From the IMG/VR virus record IMGVR_UViG_3300029951_000448: a DNA stretch of 20,000 nucleotides, one strand, 5' to 3'. How positions within the stretch are numbered: position 1 is the first letter of the stretch; each line of letters opens with the position of its first letter. The notes beneath the pieces are model-generated. The model was given only the letters and a program-made list of their open reading frames with translations. It ran no database searches and had not been told where the DNA came from. Position numbers and translations under genes: made by a program. Source of the stretch: an uncultured virus (IMG/VR IMGVR_UViG_3300029951_000448) (lineage: Duplodnaviria > Heunggongvirae > Uroviricota > Caudoviricetes). Below are positions 565-9,650 of this stretch, piece by piece.

Positions 565-604
565 CGGAGGATTCCCGAATTGGGAATTTTCTGGGAATTA
601 TCTA

Positions 605-620
605 CTGTGAGTTTACACAG
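605..620. promoter_or_regulatory. LexA (SOS) box 1, in the left att arm
   Basis: CTGT-GAGTTTAC-ACAG within the palindrome CTACTGTG-N6-CACAGTAG (602-623). It lies in the spacer of a possible TTATCT(598-603)-17-TAGGAT(621-626) promoter. Confidence 0.65.
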
Positions 621-648
621 TAGGATGTCTTGAGAAGCTTATGGGGAT

Positions 649-697
649 TGGGGTGGCTGATGGGGCTCGAACCCACGACAACAGGAATCACAATCCT
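649..697 (-). mobile_element. att core (attP): 3' 49 nt of tRNA-His(GTG), not a complete tRNA gene
   Basis: The reverse complement reads AGGATT-GTG-ATTCCTGTTGTCGTGGGTTCGAGCCCCATCAGCCACCCCA: anticodon arm with GTG, T-arm GGTTCGA, acceptor 3' strand and CCA. The D-arm and 5' acceptor strand are absent. Confidence 0.93.
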
Positions 698-802: not shown

Positions 803-844
803 TTGATGGTGCGCCGGGCGATGCTAAACTGTACAAACATACAG
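803..844 (+). promoter_or_regulatory. Sigma70-type promoter overlapped by LexA box 2
   Basis: TTGATG (803-808), 16 bp, extended -10 TGcTAAACT (822-830). CTGT-ACAAACAT-ACAG at 829-844 overlaps the -10/start region, 15 bp before ATG 860. Confidence 0.75.
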
Positions 845-859
845 TCATTTGCACATGCC

Positions 860-1168
860 ATGCCCCGCCACCAACTCCCCGACTTCGCCAGTCCCAGCAC
901 CGAAAACCTGCGCGAGCTTTACCGCACATCGGATGACGATCTAACGCGGCGAACAGTGCTCGAAGTCATCCGGTTACGTGCATTGGTGGCAGAGGCCGAC
1001 TACTACCGGGAGGTTATCCACAAATGCTGGAACGCAGAGGGTCTGGGCCGGCTGGTAGCGCTTGAGAATTTTCGGGTTCTAATGCTGGATGAGCGGTCGA
1101 GAATGGGGCTTCCGAGGGTGCGGGTTGATGACGGGGCACCGAGTGATGGGCAAAAGGAGGGAGTGTGA
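860..1168 (+). CDS. SOS-regulated hypothetical protein (102 aa, MPRHQLPDF...)
   Basis: The ORF-track start at 641 runs through the att core and is unlikely. In-frame ATG 860 follows the LexA-box promoter, and the stop overlaps the next start (GTGA). Confidence 0.75.
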   Translation: MPRHQLPDFASPSTENLRELYRTSDDDLTRRTVLEVIRLRALVAEADYYREVIHKCWNAEGLGRLVALENFRVLMLDERSRMGLPRVRVDDGAPSDGQKEGV

Positions 1169-1437
1169 ATACCAATCCATTGATCGCGCTGGCCCGATCA
1201 GACCGACATACTGAATGCTGCGGTCATGACATTTGCGCCGCCTGCGGCTCCCCAGTTAGCACCTATAACGCGAACGCTGATCTGGTCGATCAACGTCCAG
1301 AGGCGAGTGAATGGGACTGGTGGTGCGCTTGCGACAATGCAGATTGCATTCATGCATATGGCGAAGGGTTGTTTCAGGAACCGCTTGGGTGGATGGGTAA
1401 GGTGGACGCGCCGCTAGTGCGGGCAGGGGAGAATTGA
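1165..1437 (+). CDS. Cys-rich, probable zinc-binding hypothetical protein (90 aa)
   Basis: Strong SD AAGGAGG, GTGA overlap with the upstream gene; motifs ECCGHDICAAC and WCACDNADCIH. Confidence 0.7.
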   Translation: MNTNPLIALARSDRHTECCGHDICAACGSPVSTYNANADLVDQRPEASEWDWWCACDNADCIHAYGEGLFQEPLGWMGKVDAPLVRAGEN

Positions 1438-1703
1438 TGGACGAAGACGAATTCGCCGCCGAGATGAAGTCAGCAATTGAACGCGCGCTGCTTAATCCAG
1501 ACTACCCGGTTATCAAATCAACCGAGGAGGCTGACGCTCTGCATGATGACTTCATGACCAGGCTATGGGGATTTGTGCTTGAGGGATTCACGCCTGCCGT
1601 GGCAACGGGCGAATATCTTGATCTCTGGTGCACCAACAACACTGCCCCAGCCGACAAGCCCAAGCCCAACCACGTCCGCGATGCTGTGCGGGCGAATCAA
1701 TAA
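1437..1703 (+). CDS. Acidic hypothetical protein (88 aa)
   Basis: TGATG overlap with the upstream stop, SD GGGGAG. Confidence 0.6.
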   Translation: MDEDEFAAEMKSAIERALLNPDYPVIKSTEEADALHDDFMTRLWGFVLEGFTPAVATGEYLDLWCTNNTAPADKPKPNHVRDAVRANQ

Positions 1704-1714
1704 CCGCCTAAATC

Positions 1715-1744
1715 TTGTGCAACTGTACTTTTATACAGTAGAAT
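1715..1744 (+). promoter_or_regulatory. Sigma70-type promoter with LexA box 3 in its spacer
   Basis: TTGTGC (1715-1720), 18 bp, TAGAAT (1739-1744). CTGT-ACTTTTAT-ACAG at 1723-1738 is near consensus. Confidence 0.85.
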
Positions 1745-1750
1745 GAAGGC

Positions 1751-1838
1751 GGGGCATAAGAGCGCGTCAACGCTCAAATGCCCCTGACCACGCAACCGAT
1801 CCTCAGGAGATCCGGGCCACATGGCTTCTGCCATCATA
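1751..1838. ncRNA. Structured symE/symR-like 5' leader, with a possible cis-antisense RNA on the - strand
   Basis: Hairpin GGGGCAT-aa-GAGCG-cgtcaa-CGCTC-aa-ATGCCCC (1751-1784), then TGACCAC, SD AGGAGA (1805-1810), ATGGCT (1821) and ATCATA (1833-1838 = minus-strand -10 TATGAT). The resemblance to symE-family leaders is recalled, not computed. Confidence 0.45.
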
Positions 1839-1904
1839 CCTTACGCGGCTATCGCCCGCGAGATTCCCCTGAGTCCCCAACCTTCATTCGGGACAAGAAA
1901 TTGA
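1821..1904 (+). CDS. 27-aa leader peptide MASAIIPYAAIAREIPLSPQPSFGTRN (not in ORF track)
   Basis: SD AGGAGA 10 nt upstream; its TGA (1902-1904) overlaps the TTG start of the HNH gene (TTGA). Confidence 0.55.
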   Translation: MASAIIPYAAIAREIPLSPQPSFGTRN

Positions 1905-2611
1905 AGCAAATGCCTTTGACAAAAGGCCTCTTCGCACTAGTGGACGATGAGGACTACGAAGTGCTTTCCAGGTACAAATGGCATGCCGATTCGAATGGCT
2001 ATGGGGCTAGAAGGGCAATGCATCCCGATGTGCCCAGAAAAGAGATTACGATATATATGCATAGAGGCATCATGGGTCTCTGTCGGGGAGACAAAATGGT
2101 GATCGATCACATTGACAGGAATCCACGGAACAATCAGCGGAACAACCTAAGAATTTGCACCGTTGCCGAAAACGGGCGAAATACCGCGCTCAACAGTAGA
2201 AATACGAGCGGGTATAAGGGCGTTTGTTGGAACAAGAATCAAAAGCTGTGGATGGCGTCGATCCGGGTGCATGGAAAAAGAACGCATCTTGGGTGCTTCC
2301 CGACAGCGGAGTTCGCGTACGATGCGTACTGTCGCGCTGCCGTGGTTCTCCATGGAGATTTCGTCAACCATGAATTAATTGCACCCGTTGCTGGGTCGTG
2401 TGGCACGCTGACGATTGAATGCAAGCAAAAGAACAAAACTGGATACACAGGAGTTAAGCGTATCGCCGATTCCAGATGGGAGGCCTACATTAAGATAGAT
2501 CGCAAGAAAAAGTATCTTGGGTCTTTCCCATCGCCAGAATCTGCACATGAAGCATATCGTAAGGCCAAAAAAGAGCGCGATGGATCAATCGATATCAAGG
2601 AAGCGGCATGA
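1901..2611 (+). CDS. HNH endonuclease with two tandem AP2 DNA-binding domains
   Basis: Typical N-terminus (M)KQMPLTKGLFALVDDEDY; HNH motif YMHR...IDHIDRNPRNNQRNNLR; AP2 repeats NTSGYKGV...LGCFPTAEFAYDAY and NKTGYTGV...LGSFPSPESAHEAY. Start re-called at TTG 1901 (ATG 1910 is an alternative). Confidence 0.9.
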   Translation: MKQMPLTKGLFALVDDEDYEVLSRYKWHADSNGYGARRAMHPDVPRKEITIYMHRGIMGLCRGDKMVIDHIDRNPRNNQRNNLRICTVAENGRNTALNSRNTSGYKGVCWNKNQKLWMASIRVHGKRTHLGCFPTAEFAYDAYCRAAVVLHGDFVNHELIAPVAGSCGTLTIECKQKNKTGYTGVKRIADSRWEAYIKIDRKKKYLGSFPSPESAHEAYRKAKKERDGSIDIKEAA

Positions 2612-2808
2612 CCAAACCGACATGGGACCAAGCGCCCTACTGGGCGAAGTATCTAGCCATGGACGACGACTATGAATGGCATTGGTGGAGCGCGTGGCCC
2701 GAGTACAATCGGATGACGGGGAAATGGGAATGTGAGTGGGCGCAGAGGCTGGTTGCCACTGTCCCGTATGACGCGTCGGAGACGCTAGAAGGGCGTCCCG
2801 AGGAATGA
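2608..2808 (+). CDS. Small Trp-rich phage hypothetical protein (66 aa)
   Basis: ATGA overlap with the HNH gene, SD AAGGAAG; KPTWDQAPYWAKYLAMD motif resembles small phage proteins. Confidence 0.75.
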   Translation: MTKPTWDQAPYWAKYLAMDDDYEWHWWSAWPEYNRMTGKWECEWAQRLVATVPYDASETLEGRPEE

Positions 2809-2813
2809 GGGGT

Positions 2814-2844
2814 GGGCGGTACAGCTTATTGACTGTGACCGCCC
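2814..2844. terminator. Hairpin between convergent transcription units
   Basis: GGGCGGT-ACAG-cttattga-CTGT-g-ACCGCCC; no clear U-tract on either strand. Confidence 0.45.
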
Positions 2845-2862
2845 AAAACAGCGGATAGCCTG

Positions 2863-4250: not shown

Positions 4251-4610
4251 TTACTCCGTATCAGCCAAAGGCCGGCGCTTGATCTTGTCCGACCAGTGCG
4301 CAGCATCGGTCAGGACTTCGGTGTTGAAACTGCGGAAATTTCCCAGGTGGCCCACAAAAAGGTGGCAATTGACACCATCCTTATTCGCTTCGCACAACGT
4401 CGCGAGGTTGTTGGGATCAAGCTCGAGATCGGGATGCAGATGGAAAGGATGGATGTGATGCACCTCGAGCTTTTCCGACCCGCCGCAAACCTCGCAAACC
4501 GGATGCAGCGCGAGGTGATTCTTGCGGACCGTGGGCCAATGGCCAGAACGAGCGGTGCCTAGCGGGTGTTTGCCTTGAGCAACCCCGATCAAATGCGTTA
4601 CGATTTGCAT
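4251..4610 (-). CDS. Small HNH endonuclease (CxxC...HH...N...CH type)
   Basis: RSGHWPTVRK...CEVCGG...EVHHIHPF...DPNNLATLCE...CHLFVGH. Confidence 0.9.
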   Translation of the reverse strand: MQIVTHLIGVAQGKHPLGTARSGHWPTVRKNHLALHPVCEVCGGSEKLEVHHIHPFHLHPDLELDPNNLATLCEANKDGVNCHLFVGHLGNFRSFNTEVLTDAAHWSDKIKRRPLADTE

Positions 4611-6680: not shown

Positions 6681-6709
6681 TTGACAAATAGGTCCGATGG
6701 GCCTACCTT
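6681..6709 (+). promoter_or_regulatory. Strong sigma70 promoter with a 17-bp palindromic operator
   Basis: TTGACA (6681-6686), 17 bp, TACCTT (6704-6709). TAGGTCC-GAT-GGGCCTA (6689-6705, one mismatch) covers the spacer and -10. A 5' hairpin ACCTCGC-acacc-GCGAGGT follows at 6722-6740. Confidence 0.85.
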
Positions 6710-6762
6710 ATCCGTACTGGTACCTCGCACACCGCGAGGTCCGATATCCCGAAAGGACGATC

Positions 6763-7932
6763 ATGAAACTCAGCTTTCGTGCGATTTTTCGCGCGCTTGG
6801 AATTCCCGATGCACTACGAACCACCCACACCGGAACAGATCGAGGCGCTGAAAAAAACACTCGGCATGGACGGAAACCAGATGGCCGATCTGTTCGGAAT
6901 TGCGGACAGGCGCGCGTTTCGCCGGTACACAGCCAGAAATGGGAAGGACGAAAACAAGCGGCAGATCAGCGCGTACATGCTCTTCTTCGCCATGGCAAGG
7001 CTCGAATTGAGCGACGAGGCTATCGAACGAATCCTTGCTCGCATGCGGCAGGCAGGGGCTACGATCGATCTGTCGGCATCCGCTGGCGACTCGCAGCAGT
7101 AGCCGCGCTGTCGGCATGTCTTGCTGCGTGCGGCGGCGGTTCAGGCGCAAACCCGACAGACGTAGTCAAGCCCGTCATTCCGGCATCTACGCTAGCCAGT
7201 TCGCCAGTAGCGGCATCCTCGCCGGCCCCCGCGTCAAGTCCCGCGGCATCTGCACCTTTGGCCGGATCCACGCCAGCAGCACCGTCAGCCATGGCATCAA
7301 CTCCAGCCATTGGCATCGTCTTCTATGGCGACGATCAGGTATTTGGCGATGTCATCAACCAGTTCGGCATGGTGACCCTGACTTCGCCGACCGAGCCGGC
7401 TGCGCTCCAATCCCTTCTGCAATCCAGTCTCAACGACTCTGGCGTGACGGTGGCGAACTCGTCATCAGGCGGAACATCGTCATCGCTGCAGAACGAACTC
7501 GCCGGCATGGACGGGATGGGCCAAGGCGAACCCGCGCGAATGATCGCCTCGGGCGCCAAGGTCACCGTCCAGGCGCATTCAATCAATGACTTCCTAGGTG
7601 GCGAAACAGTCGAGGAATATCAGGCGGATCTCGTCACATGGGTTGAGGATGCGCAGGCAAACGGCATCCAGCCGGTCTTGCAGGAACCGTCTCCGGTTTG
7701 CGATGCGAGCAACCCACTCCAATCGGAATATGTCGCTGCGATTGATAGCGTCGGGCAGCAACTCAATGTGCCGGTGATTCCGATATACAACTACGTGCAA
7801 TCGCTGCCAGACTGGTCTGCGCACATGCAGAGTTGCGAGATTCCGGATGCGTACCTGGATCAACTGGAGGCGGAACAAGCACAAGCGATCATCGCGCCGC
7901 TCGTCAAAGCAATTATCGGAGGTCAATCATGA
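6763..7932 (+). CDS. SGNH/GDSL-fold lipoprotein with degenerate catalytic residues; start uncertain (ATG 6763 or non-canonical ATC 7078)
   Basis: Lipobox LAAC (Cys codon 7129-7131), Pro/Ala/Ser linker, then SGNH blocks FYGDD, SSGGTS, HSIND, QEPSP, CEIPD. Confidence 0.8.
   Translation: MKLSFRAIFRALGIPDALRTTHTGTDRGAEKNTRHGRKPDGRSVRNCGQARVSPVHSQKWEGRKQAADQRVHALLRHGKARIERRGYRTNPCSHAAGRGYDRSVGIRWRLAAVAALSACLAACGGGSGANPTDVVKPVIPASTLASSPVAASSPAPASSPAASAPLAGSTPAAPSAMASTPAIGIVFYGDDQVFGDVINQFGMVTLTSPTEPAALQSLLQSSLNDSGVTVANSSSGGTSSSLQNELAGMDGMGQGEPARMIASGAKVTVQAHSINDFLGGETVEEYQADLVTWVEDAQANGIQPVLQEPSPVCDASNPLQSEYVAAIDSVGQQLNVPVIPIYNYVQSLPDWSAHMQSCEIPDAYLDQLEAEQAQAIIAPLVKAIIGGQS
6809..7102 (+). CDS. XRE/KorC-like helix-turn-helix repressor (97 aa)
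   Basis: MHYEPPTPEQIEALKKTLGMDGNQMADLFGIADRRAFRRYT is an HTH pattern; the gene lies directly behind a palindromic operator. Confidence 0.8.
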   Translation: MHYEPPTPEQIEALKKTLGMDGNQMADLFGIADRRAFRRYTARNGKDENKRQISAYMLFFAMARLELSDEAIERILARMRQAGATIDLSASAGDSQQ

Positions 7933-8681: not shown

Positions 8682-9650
8682 CTACAGTCGGTTGCTCTTT
8701 CGAAGAACAAAGAACAGGTCATCTGAGCGGATTTTCTTGGACGCGATCATTTCACGCTCAATGATTTGGAGCAGCCGCACTATCGCTACATGGTCTGGGT
8801 TGTCCGCAAAAAAATTGCCGGCGCGATATTGAAGAAGCCAGCGCAGCAGCGTGCCGCCCATTGGCTTCATGTCTACGACCGGGAAATTCGAAAACAGAAG
8901 CGTTCGGAGATCGGAGCTTCTAACAGATTCCGATACGTCGGCGTCACGCACCTCCTTAATGGTGCCAACTTCAAACCTTTCTGTGATCGCCCCCTCATTG
9001 TCCCGGAGATCGCGCCGGAAACTAGGGGGCAACAGATCGAACAACTCGATGATGATCGGCAGCACATCATGCTCGATCTGGAATCTGGTCGGCCCGAAGA
9101 AATCGATGCCGACAAAAATCCCATCGTCCTTCAAATAGCGATTGACGGCTGGCAAGAATGCTTCGAGGTCGGTAGCGTGGTGAATTGCGTGGCAACAAAA
9201 CACAACATCGAACTGCTCGTCGAGTTCCACGGGGTGATTAAAGTCAAACGCCTTGAACTCTGTCGAAACCAGTGGAAAGTCCTGGCCAAATCGCGATGAC
9301 GCGTGAGTCCGCAGACTCGAATCATATTCCAGCCCAACTAAACGGGATATAGGCCACGCATGCTGGCCGAGTAGCGTCGCCTCGATATGACCACTGCCGG
9401 AACCCAGCGATAGCATGCTCAGAGTGGGGCTGCCCGCCGCGCTGTTGGCAAGAGGCTGAATATGCTCTCTTCTAGCGTACGCCGCCCAGTGTCCGCCGTC
9501 TTCGATGGGGCGGCTAGAAACCAGTTCATTGACATATGCTCGCATGCCCGGTGCATGCATCCAGTCCAGCTTCTTTCGCATCTCCTGCCACTCAGCCGAC
9601 AGGGTGTGGCGGGTCGCCGTTACTTGATGATGCTCGGGTTGTTGTTCCAT
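8682..9650 (-). CDS. Class I SAM-dependent methyltransferase (moron)
   Basis: Motif I LSLGSGSG, acidic VGLEYD, motif II FDVVFCCHAIHH, motif III YLKDDGIF. Confidence 0.85.
   Translation of the reverse strand: MEQQPEHHQVTATRHTLSAEWQEMRKKLDWMHAPGMRAYVNELVSSRPIEDGGHWAAYARREHIQPLANSAAGSPTLSMLSLGSGSGHIEATLLGQHAWPISRLVGLEYDSSLRTHASSRFGQDFPLVSTEFKAFDFNHPVELDEQFDVVFCCHAIHHATDLEAFLPAVNRYLKDDGIFVGIDFFGPTRFQIEHDVLPIIIELFDLLPPSFRRDLRDNEGAITERFEVGTIKEVRDADVSESVRSSDLRTLLFSNFPVVDMKPMGGTLLRWLLQYRAGNFFADNPDHVAIVRLLQIIEREMIASKKIRSDDLFFVLRKSNRL

What the first reader, a model, noticed from the sequence alone, without database searches (positions are those of the whole stretch)
1715..2611. symE/symR-like control cassette wired to an HNH-AP2-AP2 nuclease through a coupled leader peptide
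Seen: LexA-box promoter, long 5' hairpin, TGACCAC, SD, then ATGGCT...ATCATA (antisense -10 TATGAT). This opens a 27-aa uORF whose stop overlaps the SD-poor TTG start of the nuclease. Known: E. coli symE is repressed both by LexA and by the cis-antisense RNA SymR covering its 5' end. Inference: the same double lock (SOS plus antisense RNA) has been co-opted to license a DNA endonuclease only on DNA damage. This could be a type I TA-like/suicide or competitor-cleaving module, or a homing nuclease that captured a symE leader.
Basis: partly seen in the sequence, partly recalled or inferred. Interest (0 to 1): 0.75.

Follow-up and report, generated by a model that had tools for sequence, protein, structure and literature searches.

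The report
DNA-damage-switched phage homing nuclease gene
A temperate phage of a soil betaproteobacterium carries a selfish DNA-cutting (homing-type) gene behind its own DNA-damage-controlled promoter and a folded leader, a new twist on known nuclease gene control but not a relative of the E. coli symE/SymR system.

Summary
There is a perfect LexA box (1723-1738) inside a promoter (TTGTGC-18 nt-TAGAAT). A very stable hairpin sits at the predicted transcript start (1751-1784). A 27-codon upstream ORF has an AGGAG ribosome site, and its TGA stop overlaps the TTG start (1901) of an HNH-AP2-AP2 nuclease gene. Homologue alignment supports TTG 1901 as the start.

The symE/SymR reading is not supported. 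Rfam gives no SymR hit, blastn finds no similarity to any E. coli genome, and no SymE domain is present.

The window is a peat-metagenome temperate phage whose attP core equals the 3' part of betaproteobacterial tRNA-His. Its three LexA boxes all lie within about 1.1 kb, next to attP.

The nuclease is one of five HNH-type genes in the phage. It has lower GC than its flanks, and phages with an orf89 homologue lack both it and its leader.

Best reading: a free-standing homing-type endonuclease under SOS-gated transcription and weak, probably uORF-coupled, translation. This resembles the layered control known for T4-type homing endonuclease genes.

A cis-antisense RNA remains possible but unproven. 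Only identical copies exist in the databases, so no covariation test could be made. This scan has noted SOS-controlled HNH genes before on other DNA.

The parts
1715..1744 (+). LexA-controlled sigma-70-type promoter: -35 TTGTGC (1715-1720), an 18-nt spacer containing the LexA box CTGTACTTTTATACAG (1723-1738), and -10 TAGAAT (1739-1744)
   Evidence: The box motif is confirmed as the SOS box upstream of lexA in 4 of 5 Burkholderiales genomes that share the tRNA-His core.
1751..1784 (+). Stable imperfect hairpin at the predicted 5' end of the transcript. It is strand-symmetric; on the minus strand it is followed by GCC-UUCAUUCU.
   Evidence: -21.9 kcal/mol, z -4.66, 0 of 200 shuffles as good.
1786..1830 (-). 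Hairpin that forms only on the minus strand (16 pairs, 6 of them G-U). Its loop CCUGA is complementary to the uORF ribosome site region. It is the candidate 5' hairpin of a cis-antisense RNA.
   Evidence: -19.1 kcal/mol, z -2.64, 3 of 200 shuffles as good; plus strand 1788-1832 folds at only -9.3 kcal/mol.
1833..1838 (-). TATGAT, a candidate -10 of an antisense promoter, without a usable -35
   Evidence: best -35 is 2/6 and there is no TG extension. It is one of 12 strong -10-like hexamers in 40 kb.
1805..1809 (+). AGGAG ribosome-binding site of the uORF, 11 nt before ATG 1821
   Evidence: -7.4 kcal/mol. It is predicted to be partly paired in the mRNA.
1821..1904 (+). 27-codon upstream ORF (MASAIIPYAAIAREIPLSPQPSFGTRN). 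Its stop TGA 1902-1904 overlaps the nuclease start TTG 1901-1903.
   Evidence: No homologue found. GC3 gives no coding signal.
1901..2611 (+). HNH-AP2-AP2 free-standing homing-type endonuclease gene, 236 aa from TTG 1901 (alternative start ATG 1910). HNH_3 spans about 2075-2179, AP2-1 about 2208-2341, and AP2-2 about 2432-2563.
   Evidence: Pfam; PHROGs; PADLOC 'homing endonuclease'; alignment A1; paralogue; GC 48.8% against 55-59% in the flanks.
1912..1927 (+). 6-bp stem-loop GCCUUU-GACA-AAAGGC immediately after the start codons, inside the ribosome footprint
   Evidence: reported on the minus strand as terminator-like.
2608..2808 (+). orf66, the last gene of the unit. Its ATG overlaps the nuclease stop (ATGA).
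   Evidence: Homologues in four other phage contigs are not next to HNH genes or LexA boxes.
829..1703 (+). Upstream SOS-controlled operon into whose 3' end the cassette is set: LexA box 829-844, orf102 (860-1168), zinc-binding protein (1165-1437), orf89 (1434-1703)
   Evidence: The same box-then-gene layout is seen in relatives L224 and L228.

Best explanation
This is an SOS-gated expression cassette for a free-standing HNH-AP2 homing-type endonuclease. It sits at the 3' end of a LexA-controlled accessory operon next to attP in a temperate phage of a betaproteobacterium.

Shown:
- A perfect host-type LexA operator fills the spacer of a promoter.
- That promoter faces a nuclease gene of foreign composition.
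- The nuclease belongs to the described HNH+AP2 homing endonuclease family.
- It starts at a TTG with no usable ribosome site.

Inferred:
- In a lysogen LexA keeps the promoter shut. DNA damage opens it, so the nuclease is made only when prophages are induced and replicating and recombination repair is active.
- The transcript begins about 1751, at the foot of a stable hairpin that probably protects its 5' end.
- Nuclease translation is kept low and depends mostly on ribosomes that finish the 27-codon uORF and restart at TTG 1901 or ATG 1910.

This is the same layered logic known for T4-type homing endonuclease genes: an own promoter, RNA structure, and overlapping stop/start. Here a LexA promoter takes the place of a late promoter. 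It is not homologous to symE/SymR.
For: LexA control:
- Box statistics: 3 perfect sites against 0.17 expected. All three sites of the record are clustered.
- The same motif occurs twice upstream of lexA in 4 of 5 Burkholderiales genomes that carry the identical tRNA-His 3' part.

Nuclease identity:
- Pfam HNH_3 + AP2 x2; PHROG 'HNH endonuclease' 1.6e-56; PADLOC 'homing endonuclease'.
- The HNH+AP2 family is described as homing endonuclease genes in passages of PMC10448857.

Start codon:
- 12 of 15 aligned homologues start at the column of TTG 1901, and none shares the 41-residue extension of the 277-aa ORF.
- The closest IMG/VR relative, L010, has only TTG there.
- The 49%-identical paralogue in the same phage starts MKLIPLNKG.

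Foreign cassette:
- GC is 48.8% against 54.8% (orf89) and 58.7% (orf66).
- 7 of 7 non-self loci with an orf89 homologue lack the box, leader and HNH downstream.
- The phage has five HNH-type genes.

Coupling:
- SD-poor start (-4.0 kcal/mol) against -7.4 for the uORF.
- Overlapping TTGA.
- A hairpin right after the start.
- Shuffle test: 31 of 2000.

Precedent: promoters, RBS-sequestering hairpins and stop/start overlap (mobE UAAUGA) in T4-type homing endonuclease genes, from passages of PMC2988022.
Against: - No experimental or comparative support is available. Every other copy found is identical or differs at one base outside the leader, so neither uORF conservation nor structure covariation could be tested.
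- The -35 is weak (3/6) with an 18-nt spacer, and the stock promoter scan does not list the site.
- The uORF start codon lies in a 5-bp stem. Its predicted unpaired probability is 0.05-0.37, and the SD's is 0.24-0.65.
- The SD-to-ATG spacing of 11 nt is long.
- The uORF frame has the lowest GC3 of the three frames.
- 0 of 80 IMG/VR HNH-AP2 relatives has a LexA box just upstream, so SOS control is not a family trait. It could be an accident of where this copy landed.
- Read-through from the upstream SOS operon could express the nuclease without this promoter.
Confidence: 0.6

Rival explanations
1. Double lock with a cis-antisense RNA, as the first reader proposed (symE/SymR-like or hok/mok/sok-like in architecture only). 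A roughly 85-nt minus-strand RNA would start near 1827 from TATGAT and end at the 1784-1751 hairpin plus UUCAUUCU. It would cover the uORF ribosome site and start codon, blocking uORF translation and hence nuclease translation unless SOS transcription outruns it.
For: - The minus strand 1830->1740 folds into two clean hairpins: -44.0 kcal/mol, MFE frequency 0.28, z -3.97, 0 of 200 shuffles as good. The plus strand gives -32.5, z -2.21, 4 of 200.
- The 5' hairpin exists only on the minus strand. Its loop is complementary to the SD region.
- TATGAT is one of 12 strong -10-like hexamers in 40 kb and faces the LexA promoter about 94 nt away.
- SymR is a 77-nt RNA opposite the 5' end of an SOS gene, with its promoter inside the coding sequence (Introduction of PMC1891008), so the layout is comparable.
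Against: - The best -35 is 2/6 and there is no TG extension.
- The U-tract is weak (5 U in 8, and only if the GCC extension of the stem is counted).
- 6 of the 16 pairs of the minus-only hairpin are G-U, and its z-score is only -2.64.
- The region is C-rich on the plus strand, which by itself favours minus-strand folding.
- No Rfam antisense family matches.
Confidence: 0.2
2. Relic leader. The LexA promoter, hairpin and 27-codon ORF are what is left of an older SOS-induced gene or of the phage's own intergenic region. The nuclease gene inserted behind it and merely hitch-hikes. The stop/start overlap would then be a by-product of the insertion, not an evolved control.
For: - The composition break lies at about 1900: the transcribed leader is 59.0% GC like the backbone, and the nuclease is 48.8%.
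- 0 of 80 HNH-AP2 relatives carries such a leader or a proximal LexA box.
- The paralogue in the same phage has no leader at all; there are 12 nt from the upstream stop to its ATG.
Against: - 7 of 7 non-self loci with an orf89 homologue have no leader or box after that gene either, so the leader is not visibly older than the nuclease at this site.
- No homologue of the 27-aa peptide was found in phage records.
- The overlap arrangement is rare in shuffles.
- The high GC of the leader may simply reflect its stems.
Confidence: 0.25
3. SOS-induced toxin or weapon. The nuclease would act as a suicide or abortive toxin, or as a competitor-cleaving enzyme (logic like the LexA-controlled HNH DNase colicins, recalled), with orf66 as a possible immunity protein.
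For: - The nuclease is under LexA control.
- The small acidic Trp-rich orf66 is translationally overlapped downstream (ATGA at 2608-2611).
Against: - There is no translocation, receptor or secretion part; the protein is only HNH + two AP2 domains.
- orf66 homologues in four other phage contigs (L005-L008) are not next to HNH genes.
- PADLOC gives only a generic 'homing endonuclease' model and no defence-system hit for the neighbours.
- The phage holds five HNH-type genes, as homing-endonuclease-rich phages do.
Confidence: 0.1
4. The 277-aa ORF from ATG 1778 is the real gene, as the gene callers annotated it, and there is no separate leader peptide.
For: - The frame is open from 1778, and database records hold the 277-aa form.
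- That frame has the highest GC3 in 1778-1900 (0.659, 41 codons).
Against: - ATG 1778 lies in the 3' arm of the stable hairpin and has no ribosome site (-2.1 kcal/mol).
- None of the 15 aligned homologues shares the extension.
- Best query coverage among the 120 listed homologues is 85%.
Confidence: 0.05

Closest known systems
Regulated free-standing homing endonuclease genes of T4-type phages (segB, mobE of Aeh1, I-TevI to III); review PMC2988022, passages read
   Same: A selfish nuclease gene set between phage genes. It has its own dedicated promoter, a structured RNA around the translation start, weak initiation signals, and an overlapping stop/start suggesting translational coupling (mobE/nrdA UAAUGA).
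   Different: Here the phage is temperate and the promoter is a host LexA-repressed sigma-70 promoter, not a T4 middle or late promoter. The upstream reading frame is a 27-codon leader ORF, not a full gene. The start codon is TTG. Nothing here has been tested experimentally.
HNH + AP2 homing endonuclease family (Magnani et al. 2004, as cited in PMC10448857; 'IPA-HNH' homing endonuclease genes of ICP1)
   Same: An N-terminal HNH_3 nuclease domain followed by AP2 DNA-binding domain(s). The gene is free-standing in phage genomes, with several nuclease genes per phage.
   Different: This copy has two AP2 domains and a LexA-box promoter. 0 of 80 IMG/VR relatives examined has a proximal LexA box.
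E. coli symE/SymR (Kawano, Aravind, Storz 2007, PMC1891008; abstract and Introduction read)
   Same: A LexA-repressed promoter, and possibly a short RNA encoded opposite the 5' end with its promoter just inside the first ORF. Several layers of repression act on a nuclease-type product.
   Different: No sequence or covariance-model similarity. The product is an HNH-AP2 DNA endonuclease, not a SymE (AbrB/MazE-fold) protein. The covered ORF is a 27-codon leader. The antisense RNA is hypothetical.
LexA-controlled accessory or antirepressor operons outside the immunity region of temperate phages (Gifsy prophages, Lemire et al. 2011, PMC3121763; abstract read)
   Same: Phage genes outside the immunity region under direct LexA control. 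Here three boxes lie beside attP, and the first gene's box is conserved in two related phage contigs.
   Different: No antirepressor function is shown for any gene here. The Gifsy operons are not known to me (recalled) to carry a nuclease gene with its own second LexA promoter.
LexA-regulated DUF222/HNH (REP13E12) genes of Mycobacterium tuberculosis
   Same: An HNH nuclease gene of a selfish, multicopy kind directly behind an SOS operator.
   Different: A different HNH family (DUF222, no AP2), a different LexA motif, and a chromosomal rather than phage setting.

Membership tests
symE/SymR type I toxin-antitoxin locus | SymE protein (SymE_toxin / AbrB-MazE fold) as the regulated product | tested here: not met
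   Pfam scan of 8 ORFs, including the nuclease and the uORF, gives HNH_3 and AP2 only and no SymE domain.
symE/SymR type I toxin-antitoxin locus | SymR-like antisense RNA (sequence and structure family) | tested here: not met
   Rfam 15: 0 hits at gathering score in the window. In 1600-2100 at E<=10 there are only Plasmid_R1162 (17.7 bits, cut-off 55, E 1.5) and TCL6_1. That Rfam holds a SymR model is recalled, not checked. blastn against the E. coli genomes finds no match at E<=10.
symE/SymR type I toxin-antitoxin locus | LexA operator at the sense promoter | tested here: met
   Perfect CTGT-N8-ACAG in the promoter spacer.
symE/SymR type I toxin-antitoxin locus | An expressed cis-antisense RNA covering the ribosome site and start codon | not testable with these tools
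   Only sequence hints are available. Expression was not tested with RNA data.
HNH + AP2 free-standing homing endonuclease genes | N-terminal HNH nuclease domain with conserved catalytic residues | tested here: met
   PF13392 HNH_3, 34.4 bits (cut-off 24.8). D110, H111, N119, N123, N132 and N135 are invariant across the 16 aligned sequences.
HNH + AP2 free-standing homing endonuclease genes | C-terminal AP2 DNA-binding domain(s) | tested here: met
   PF00847 AP2, 51.1 bits (cut-off 33.3), two stretches. PDB AP2 proteins are the only solved relatives.
HNH + AP2 free-standing homing endonuclease genes | Free-standing gene, present or absent between conserved neighbours, with atypical composition | tested here: met
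   Absent after the orf89 homologue in 7 of 7 non-self loci. GC 48.8% against flanks of 54.8% and 58.7%. There is a paralogue elsewhere in the same phage.
HNH + AP2 free-standing homing endonuclease genes | Site-specific cleavage of a nuclease-less allele, and homing | not testable with these tools
   No nuclease-less allele of this site was found.
SOS (LexA) regulon of Beta/Gammaproteobacteria | Operator matching the host LexA motif and placed to block RNA polymerase | tested here: met
   The box lies between -35 and -10. The motif is present twice upstream of lexA in 4 of 5 Burkholderiales genomes sharing the attP core.
SOS (LexA) regulon of Beta/Gammaproteobacteria | LexA binding and damage induction | not testable with these tools
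   This needs a gel shift or reporter assay. The host is inferred only from the tRNA-His core.
Translationally coupled leader ORF | A translated upstream ORF whose stop overlaps or abuts the start of an SD-poor gene | tested here: inconclusive
   The geometry is met and is rare in shuffles (31 of 2000). However, the uORF start is predicted to be paired and there is no conservation data.

The most novel reading that the evidence does not exclude
A three-layer lock on a homing endonuclease in a temperate phage. The layers would be LexA repression, a cis-antisense small RNA over the leader ORF's ribosome site, and obligatory leader-ORF coupling to a TTG start (hok/mok/sok logic moved onto a DNA nuclease). 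Homing would then be licensed only during the SOS response, when co-resident prophages replicate and recombinational repair is at its peak.
Probability: 0.15. Interest if true: 0.7.

Novelty: new variant of a known kind. Interest (0 to 1): 0.42.

Why it matters
Homing endonuclease genes must cut rarely and at the right time, and how they are timed has been worked out almost only in virulent T4-type phages. A temperate-phage copy wired directly to the host DNA-damage repressor would show a different solution. The nuclease would be silent in the lysogen and made exactly when prophages are induced and recombination is active.

It would also add a nuclease to the short list of phage genes under direct LexA control. 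My two literature searches (listings and abstracts only) did not turn up a LexA-controlled phage homing endonuclease. These were keyword searches of open-access text and do not prove that none is in print.

The practical value is modest, because the element is known from one clonal phage population only.

Tried and rejected
Searches for relatives of the leader:
- blastn against phage records found no match.
- blastn against plasmids found four 27-nt matches at E 0.6.
- blastn against E. coli genomes found no match.
- 401 Burkholderiales genomes gave only two 31-34-nt matches inside the nuclease and orf66 parts.
- A genome-contig scan with the nuclease protein found nothing.
- Metagenome and IMG/VR scans returned only the same phage. 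It shows 1 mismatch in 5.8 kb.
- The 90% cluster has two full-length members that differ at one residue outside the leader.
- For these reasons no covariance model or covariation count was attempted.

uORF peptide:
- tblastn against phages found no match.

RNA evidence: no RNA holder is listed among the 24 peat-metagenome runs.

Laying contigs of 4 runs:
- It showed only fragmentary identical cover and no contig joining across the nuclease gene.
- One joint, 1424->1668, had a 26-letter side, too short to trust.

Other checks:
- No difference in predicted accessibility of the starts between read-through and promoter-proximal transcripts. A T4-style 'hairpin only on long transcripts' switch is therefore not supported.
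- The alignment of the window leader with the L010 leader shows no homology.
- The LexA box read as a minus-strand promoter was rejected, because I saw no -10 better than TAGAAT when reading the reverse complement by eye (no scan was run on it).
- A put- or nut-like antitermination RNA, a leader-peptide attenuator and an intrinsic terminator on the plus strand were considered and dropped. There is no U-tract after 1784 and no terminator between the uORF and the nuclease.
- Pfam and PHROGs found no repressor in the 16.7 kb upstream, so the phage's induction route could not be settled.
Full report
**What the window is.** The window lies on the minus strand of a 42.3-kb IMG/VR virus record with an estimated completeness of 80%. 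The DNA is held by 24 peat-metagenome DNA runs.

PHROGs and Pfam show a temperate tailed phage:
- an integrase C-terminus at 1-564;
- endolysin, baseplate and tail fibre genes on the minus strand from about 2860 onward;
- RecT and exonuclease genes upstream.

ARAGORN finds no complete tRNA. However, 648-697 is the 3' 50 nt of a tRNA-His on the minus strand (read). A 48-base stretch of it is identical in at least 121 contigs, almost all betaproteobacterial (Burkholderiales, Methylophilaceae, Neisseriales-type genera). Contigs of the peat runs cover this stretch at high depth and continue into the rest of a tRNA. This is an attP core, and the host is most probably a betaproteobacterium.

**The observation.**
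- The box CTGTACTTTTATACAG is at 1723-1738. The window holds three perfect CTGT-N8-ACAG sites (605, 829, 1723) against 0.17 expected, and 0 of 200 shuffles reach three.
- The remaining 22.4 kb of the record holds none.
- In 4 of 5 Burkholderiales genomes that share the tRNA-His core, lexA itself is preceded by two such boxes. The motif is therefore the operator used in this host group.
- The box fills the 18-nt spacer between TTGTGC (3/6) and TAGAAT (5/6).
- The stock scan does not list this promoter because of the weak -35. Strong -10-like hexamers are rare here: 12 on both strands of 20 kb.
- A transcript should start about 1751, exactly at the foot of a hairpin (1751-1784; -21.9 kcal/mol, z -4.66, 0 of 200 shuffles).
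- AGGAG (1805-1809; -7.4 kcal/mol against the anti-SD) lies 11 nt before ATG 1821.
- The 27-codon ORF ends with TGA 1902-1904, overlapping TTG 1901-1903.

**The nuclease and its start.**
- Pfam gives HNH_3 and two AP2 stretches. PHROGs gives HNH endonuclease at 1.6e-56. PADLOC gives only a generic homing endonuclease model.
- The large protein search returned 518 relatives. Among the 120 listed, none covers more than 85% of the 277-aa ORF.
- In an alignment of 15 of these (chosen among the best, 12 two-AP2 and 3 one-AP2 forms), 12 begin at the column of TTG 1901 with MK[EQK][IL]PLT. One begins one residue earlier, one nine residues later, and one has an unrelated extension.
- The closest IMG/VR relative (L010, 54% identity) has only a TTG at that position, and two others use GTG.
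- A 49%-identical single-AP2 paralogue elsewhere in the same phage starts ATG-MKLIPLNKG, 12 nt after the preceding stop and with no leader.
- TTG 1901 is therefore the ancestral start. ATG 1910 remains a possible second start.
- Both have a poor ribosome site (-4.0 kcal/mol; 27% of sampled positions do as well). A 6-bp stem-loop follows at 1912-1927.

**Is the cassette foreign to the site?**
- The nuclease gene has 48.8% GC. For comparison: orf89 54.8%, orf66 58.7%, the window 57.7%, and the transcribed leader 59.0%.
- I built an alignment of orf89 homologues and fetched 7 non-self IMG/VR loci.
- In all 7, the orf89 homologue is followed directly by another gene or by the operon's end. None has a LexA box, a leader-like sequence or an HNH gene there.
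- Two of them (L224, L228) carry a LexA box 8-9 nt before the start of an orf102-like first gene. In the window, box 829 lies 15 nt before ATG 860. The upstream operon is therefore a conserved SOS unit, and the block 1704-2607 is an addition at its 3' end.
- The phage carries five HNH-type genes in all.
- Conversely, of 80 IMG/VR HNH-AP2 loci (the best of 439 confirmed), none has a LexA box in the 700 nt before the gene. Two boxes occur in 226,563 nt: one inside a gene and one 720 nt upstream. None resembles the leader; the best blastn E-value is 0.46.
- SOS control is thus a property of this copy, not of the family.

**symE/SymR.**
- Rfam gives nothing at gathering score. At E<=10 over 1600-2100 it gives only two chance-level hits, neither SymR.
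- The leader has no blastn match in 5,426 E. coli genomes at E<=10.
- No ORF has a SymE domain.
- The resemblance here is one of layout only, and membership fails on two defining features.

**The uORF.**

For translation and coupling:
- the geometry;
- the SD-poor TTG start with a hairpin just behind it;
- a shuffle test in which only 31 of 2000 (ATG) or 52 of 2000 (any start) shuffled leaders gave an SD-preceded ORF ending at that TGA (post hoc).

Against:
- the ATG lies in a 5-bp stem and is predicted mostly paired (unpaired probability 0.05-0.37; SD 0.24-0.65);
- the SD spacing is long;
- GC3 gives no coding signal;
- no homologue of the peptide was found.

I put translation-with-coupling at about 0.4-0.45.

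**The antisense RNA.**

For:
- The minus strand 1830->1740 folds into two well-defined hairpins (-44.0 kcal/mol, z -3.97, 0 of 200). The plus strand is less structured (-32.5, z -2.21, 4 of 200).
- The 5' hairpin is minus-strand specific.
- The terminal hairpin is followed by UUCAUUCU.
- TATGAT at 1838->1833 is rare.

Against:
- The -35 is 2/6 and there is no TG extension.
- The U-tract is poor.
- 6 of the 16 pairs of the specific hairpin are G-U.
- The local C-richness of the plus strand favours minus-strand folding in any case.

I put the antisense RNA at about 0.2.

**What is known.**
- HNH+AP2 proteins are a described homing endonuclease family in phages (passages of PMC10448857).
- T4-type homing endonuclease genes are controlled by their own promoters, RBS-sequestering hairpins and stop/start overlaps such as mobE's UAAUGA (passages of PMC2988022).
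- L010, the closest relative with context, also has a structured leader of about 100 nt with its TTG start inside a helix. It has no sequence homology to this leader.
- LexA-controlled phage operons outside the immunity region are known from Gifsy prophages (abstract of PMC3121763).
- Earlier notes of this scan record SOS boxes before other HNH genes (DUF222-HNH, and a tRNA-adjacent HNH cassette) on other DNA. I did not test those notes.

**Verdict.** The nuclease is a free-standing homing-type endonuclease with a private LexA-gated promoter and a structured leader that probably limits translation. The symE/SymR label should be dropped. It is a new variant of known kinds: regulated homing endonuclease genes, and LexA-controlled phage accessory genes. 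It is known from one clonal phage population, and none of its regulatory steps has been tested.

Noticed in passing
window 648-697 (minus strand): This is the 3' 50 nt of a tRNA-His, including the anticodon loop, and no full tRNA is present. It is identical to tRNA-His genes of many betaproteobacteria. It is therefore the phage attP core beside the integrase gene, and it identifies the host group.
   Followed up: yes
window 605-620 and 829-844; L224 1938-1953; L228 1740-1755: Two further perfect LexA boxes flank attP. Box 829 lies 15 nt before ATG 860 of orf102 (102 aa, no family). Two related phage contigs have a box 8-9 nt before a weakly similar first gene (25% identity over 51 aa, pairwise E 6e-4). 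This is a conserved SOS-controlled operon that could hold a Gifsy-type antirepressor.
   Followed up: partly
window 4251-4610 (-); L090 14639-15106 (-), 8342-8995 (-), 714-1532 (-): There are four more HNH-type nuclease genes in the same 42.3-kb phage. They include a single-AP2 paralogue (49% identity) with no leader and one gene next to RecT. The genome is rich in homing endonucleases.
   Followed up: partly
L010 1095-1215: The closest IMG/VR relative of the nuclease also starts with TTG and has a structured leader of about 100 nt (z -2.92) with the start codon inside a helix. It is not homologous in sequence to the window's leader.
   Followed up: partly
window 602-607 (minus strand): GATAAT on the minus strand lies 2 nt from LexA box 605. 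That box could therefore serve a leftward promoter as well as, or instead of, the rightward TAGGAT at 621-626.
   Followed up: no
window 2608-2808: orf66 is Trp-rich and acidic and matches PHROG 1972. It has homologues (37-46% identity) in four other phage contigs, lying among small genes and in L005 directly after a 454-aa ORF. None of these is near LexA boxes or directly next to HNH genes.
   Followed up: partly
window 6697-7932 (+) and 8682-9650 (-): A GDSL-lipase-like ORF (just under Pfam's cut-off) and a SAM-methyltransferase ORF are set among the late genes. They are possible morons.
   Followed up: no
window 2815-2850: The inverted repeat GGGCGGT...ACCGCCC lies between the convergent orf66 and the last minus-strand gene. 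It has no U-tract on either strand.
   Followed up: no
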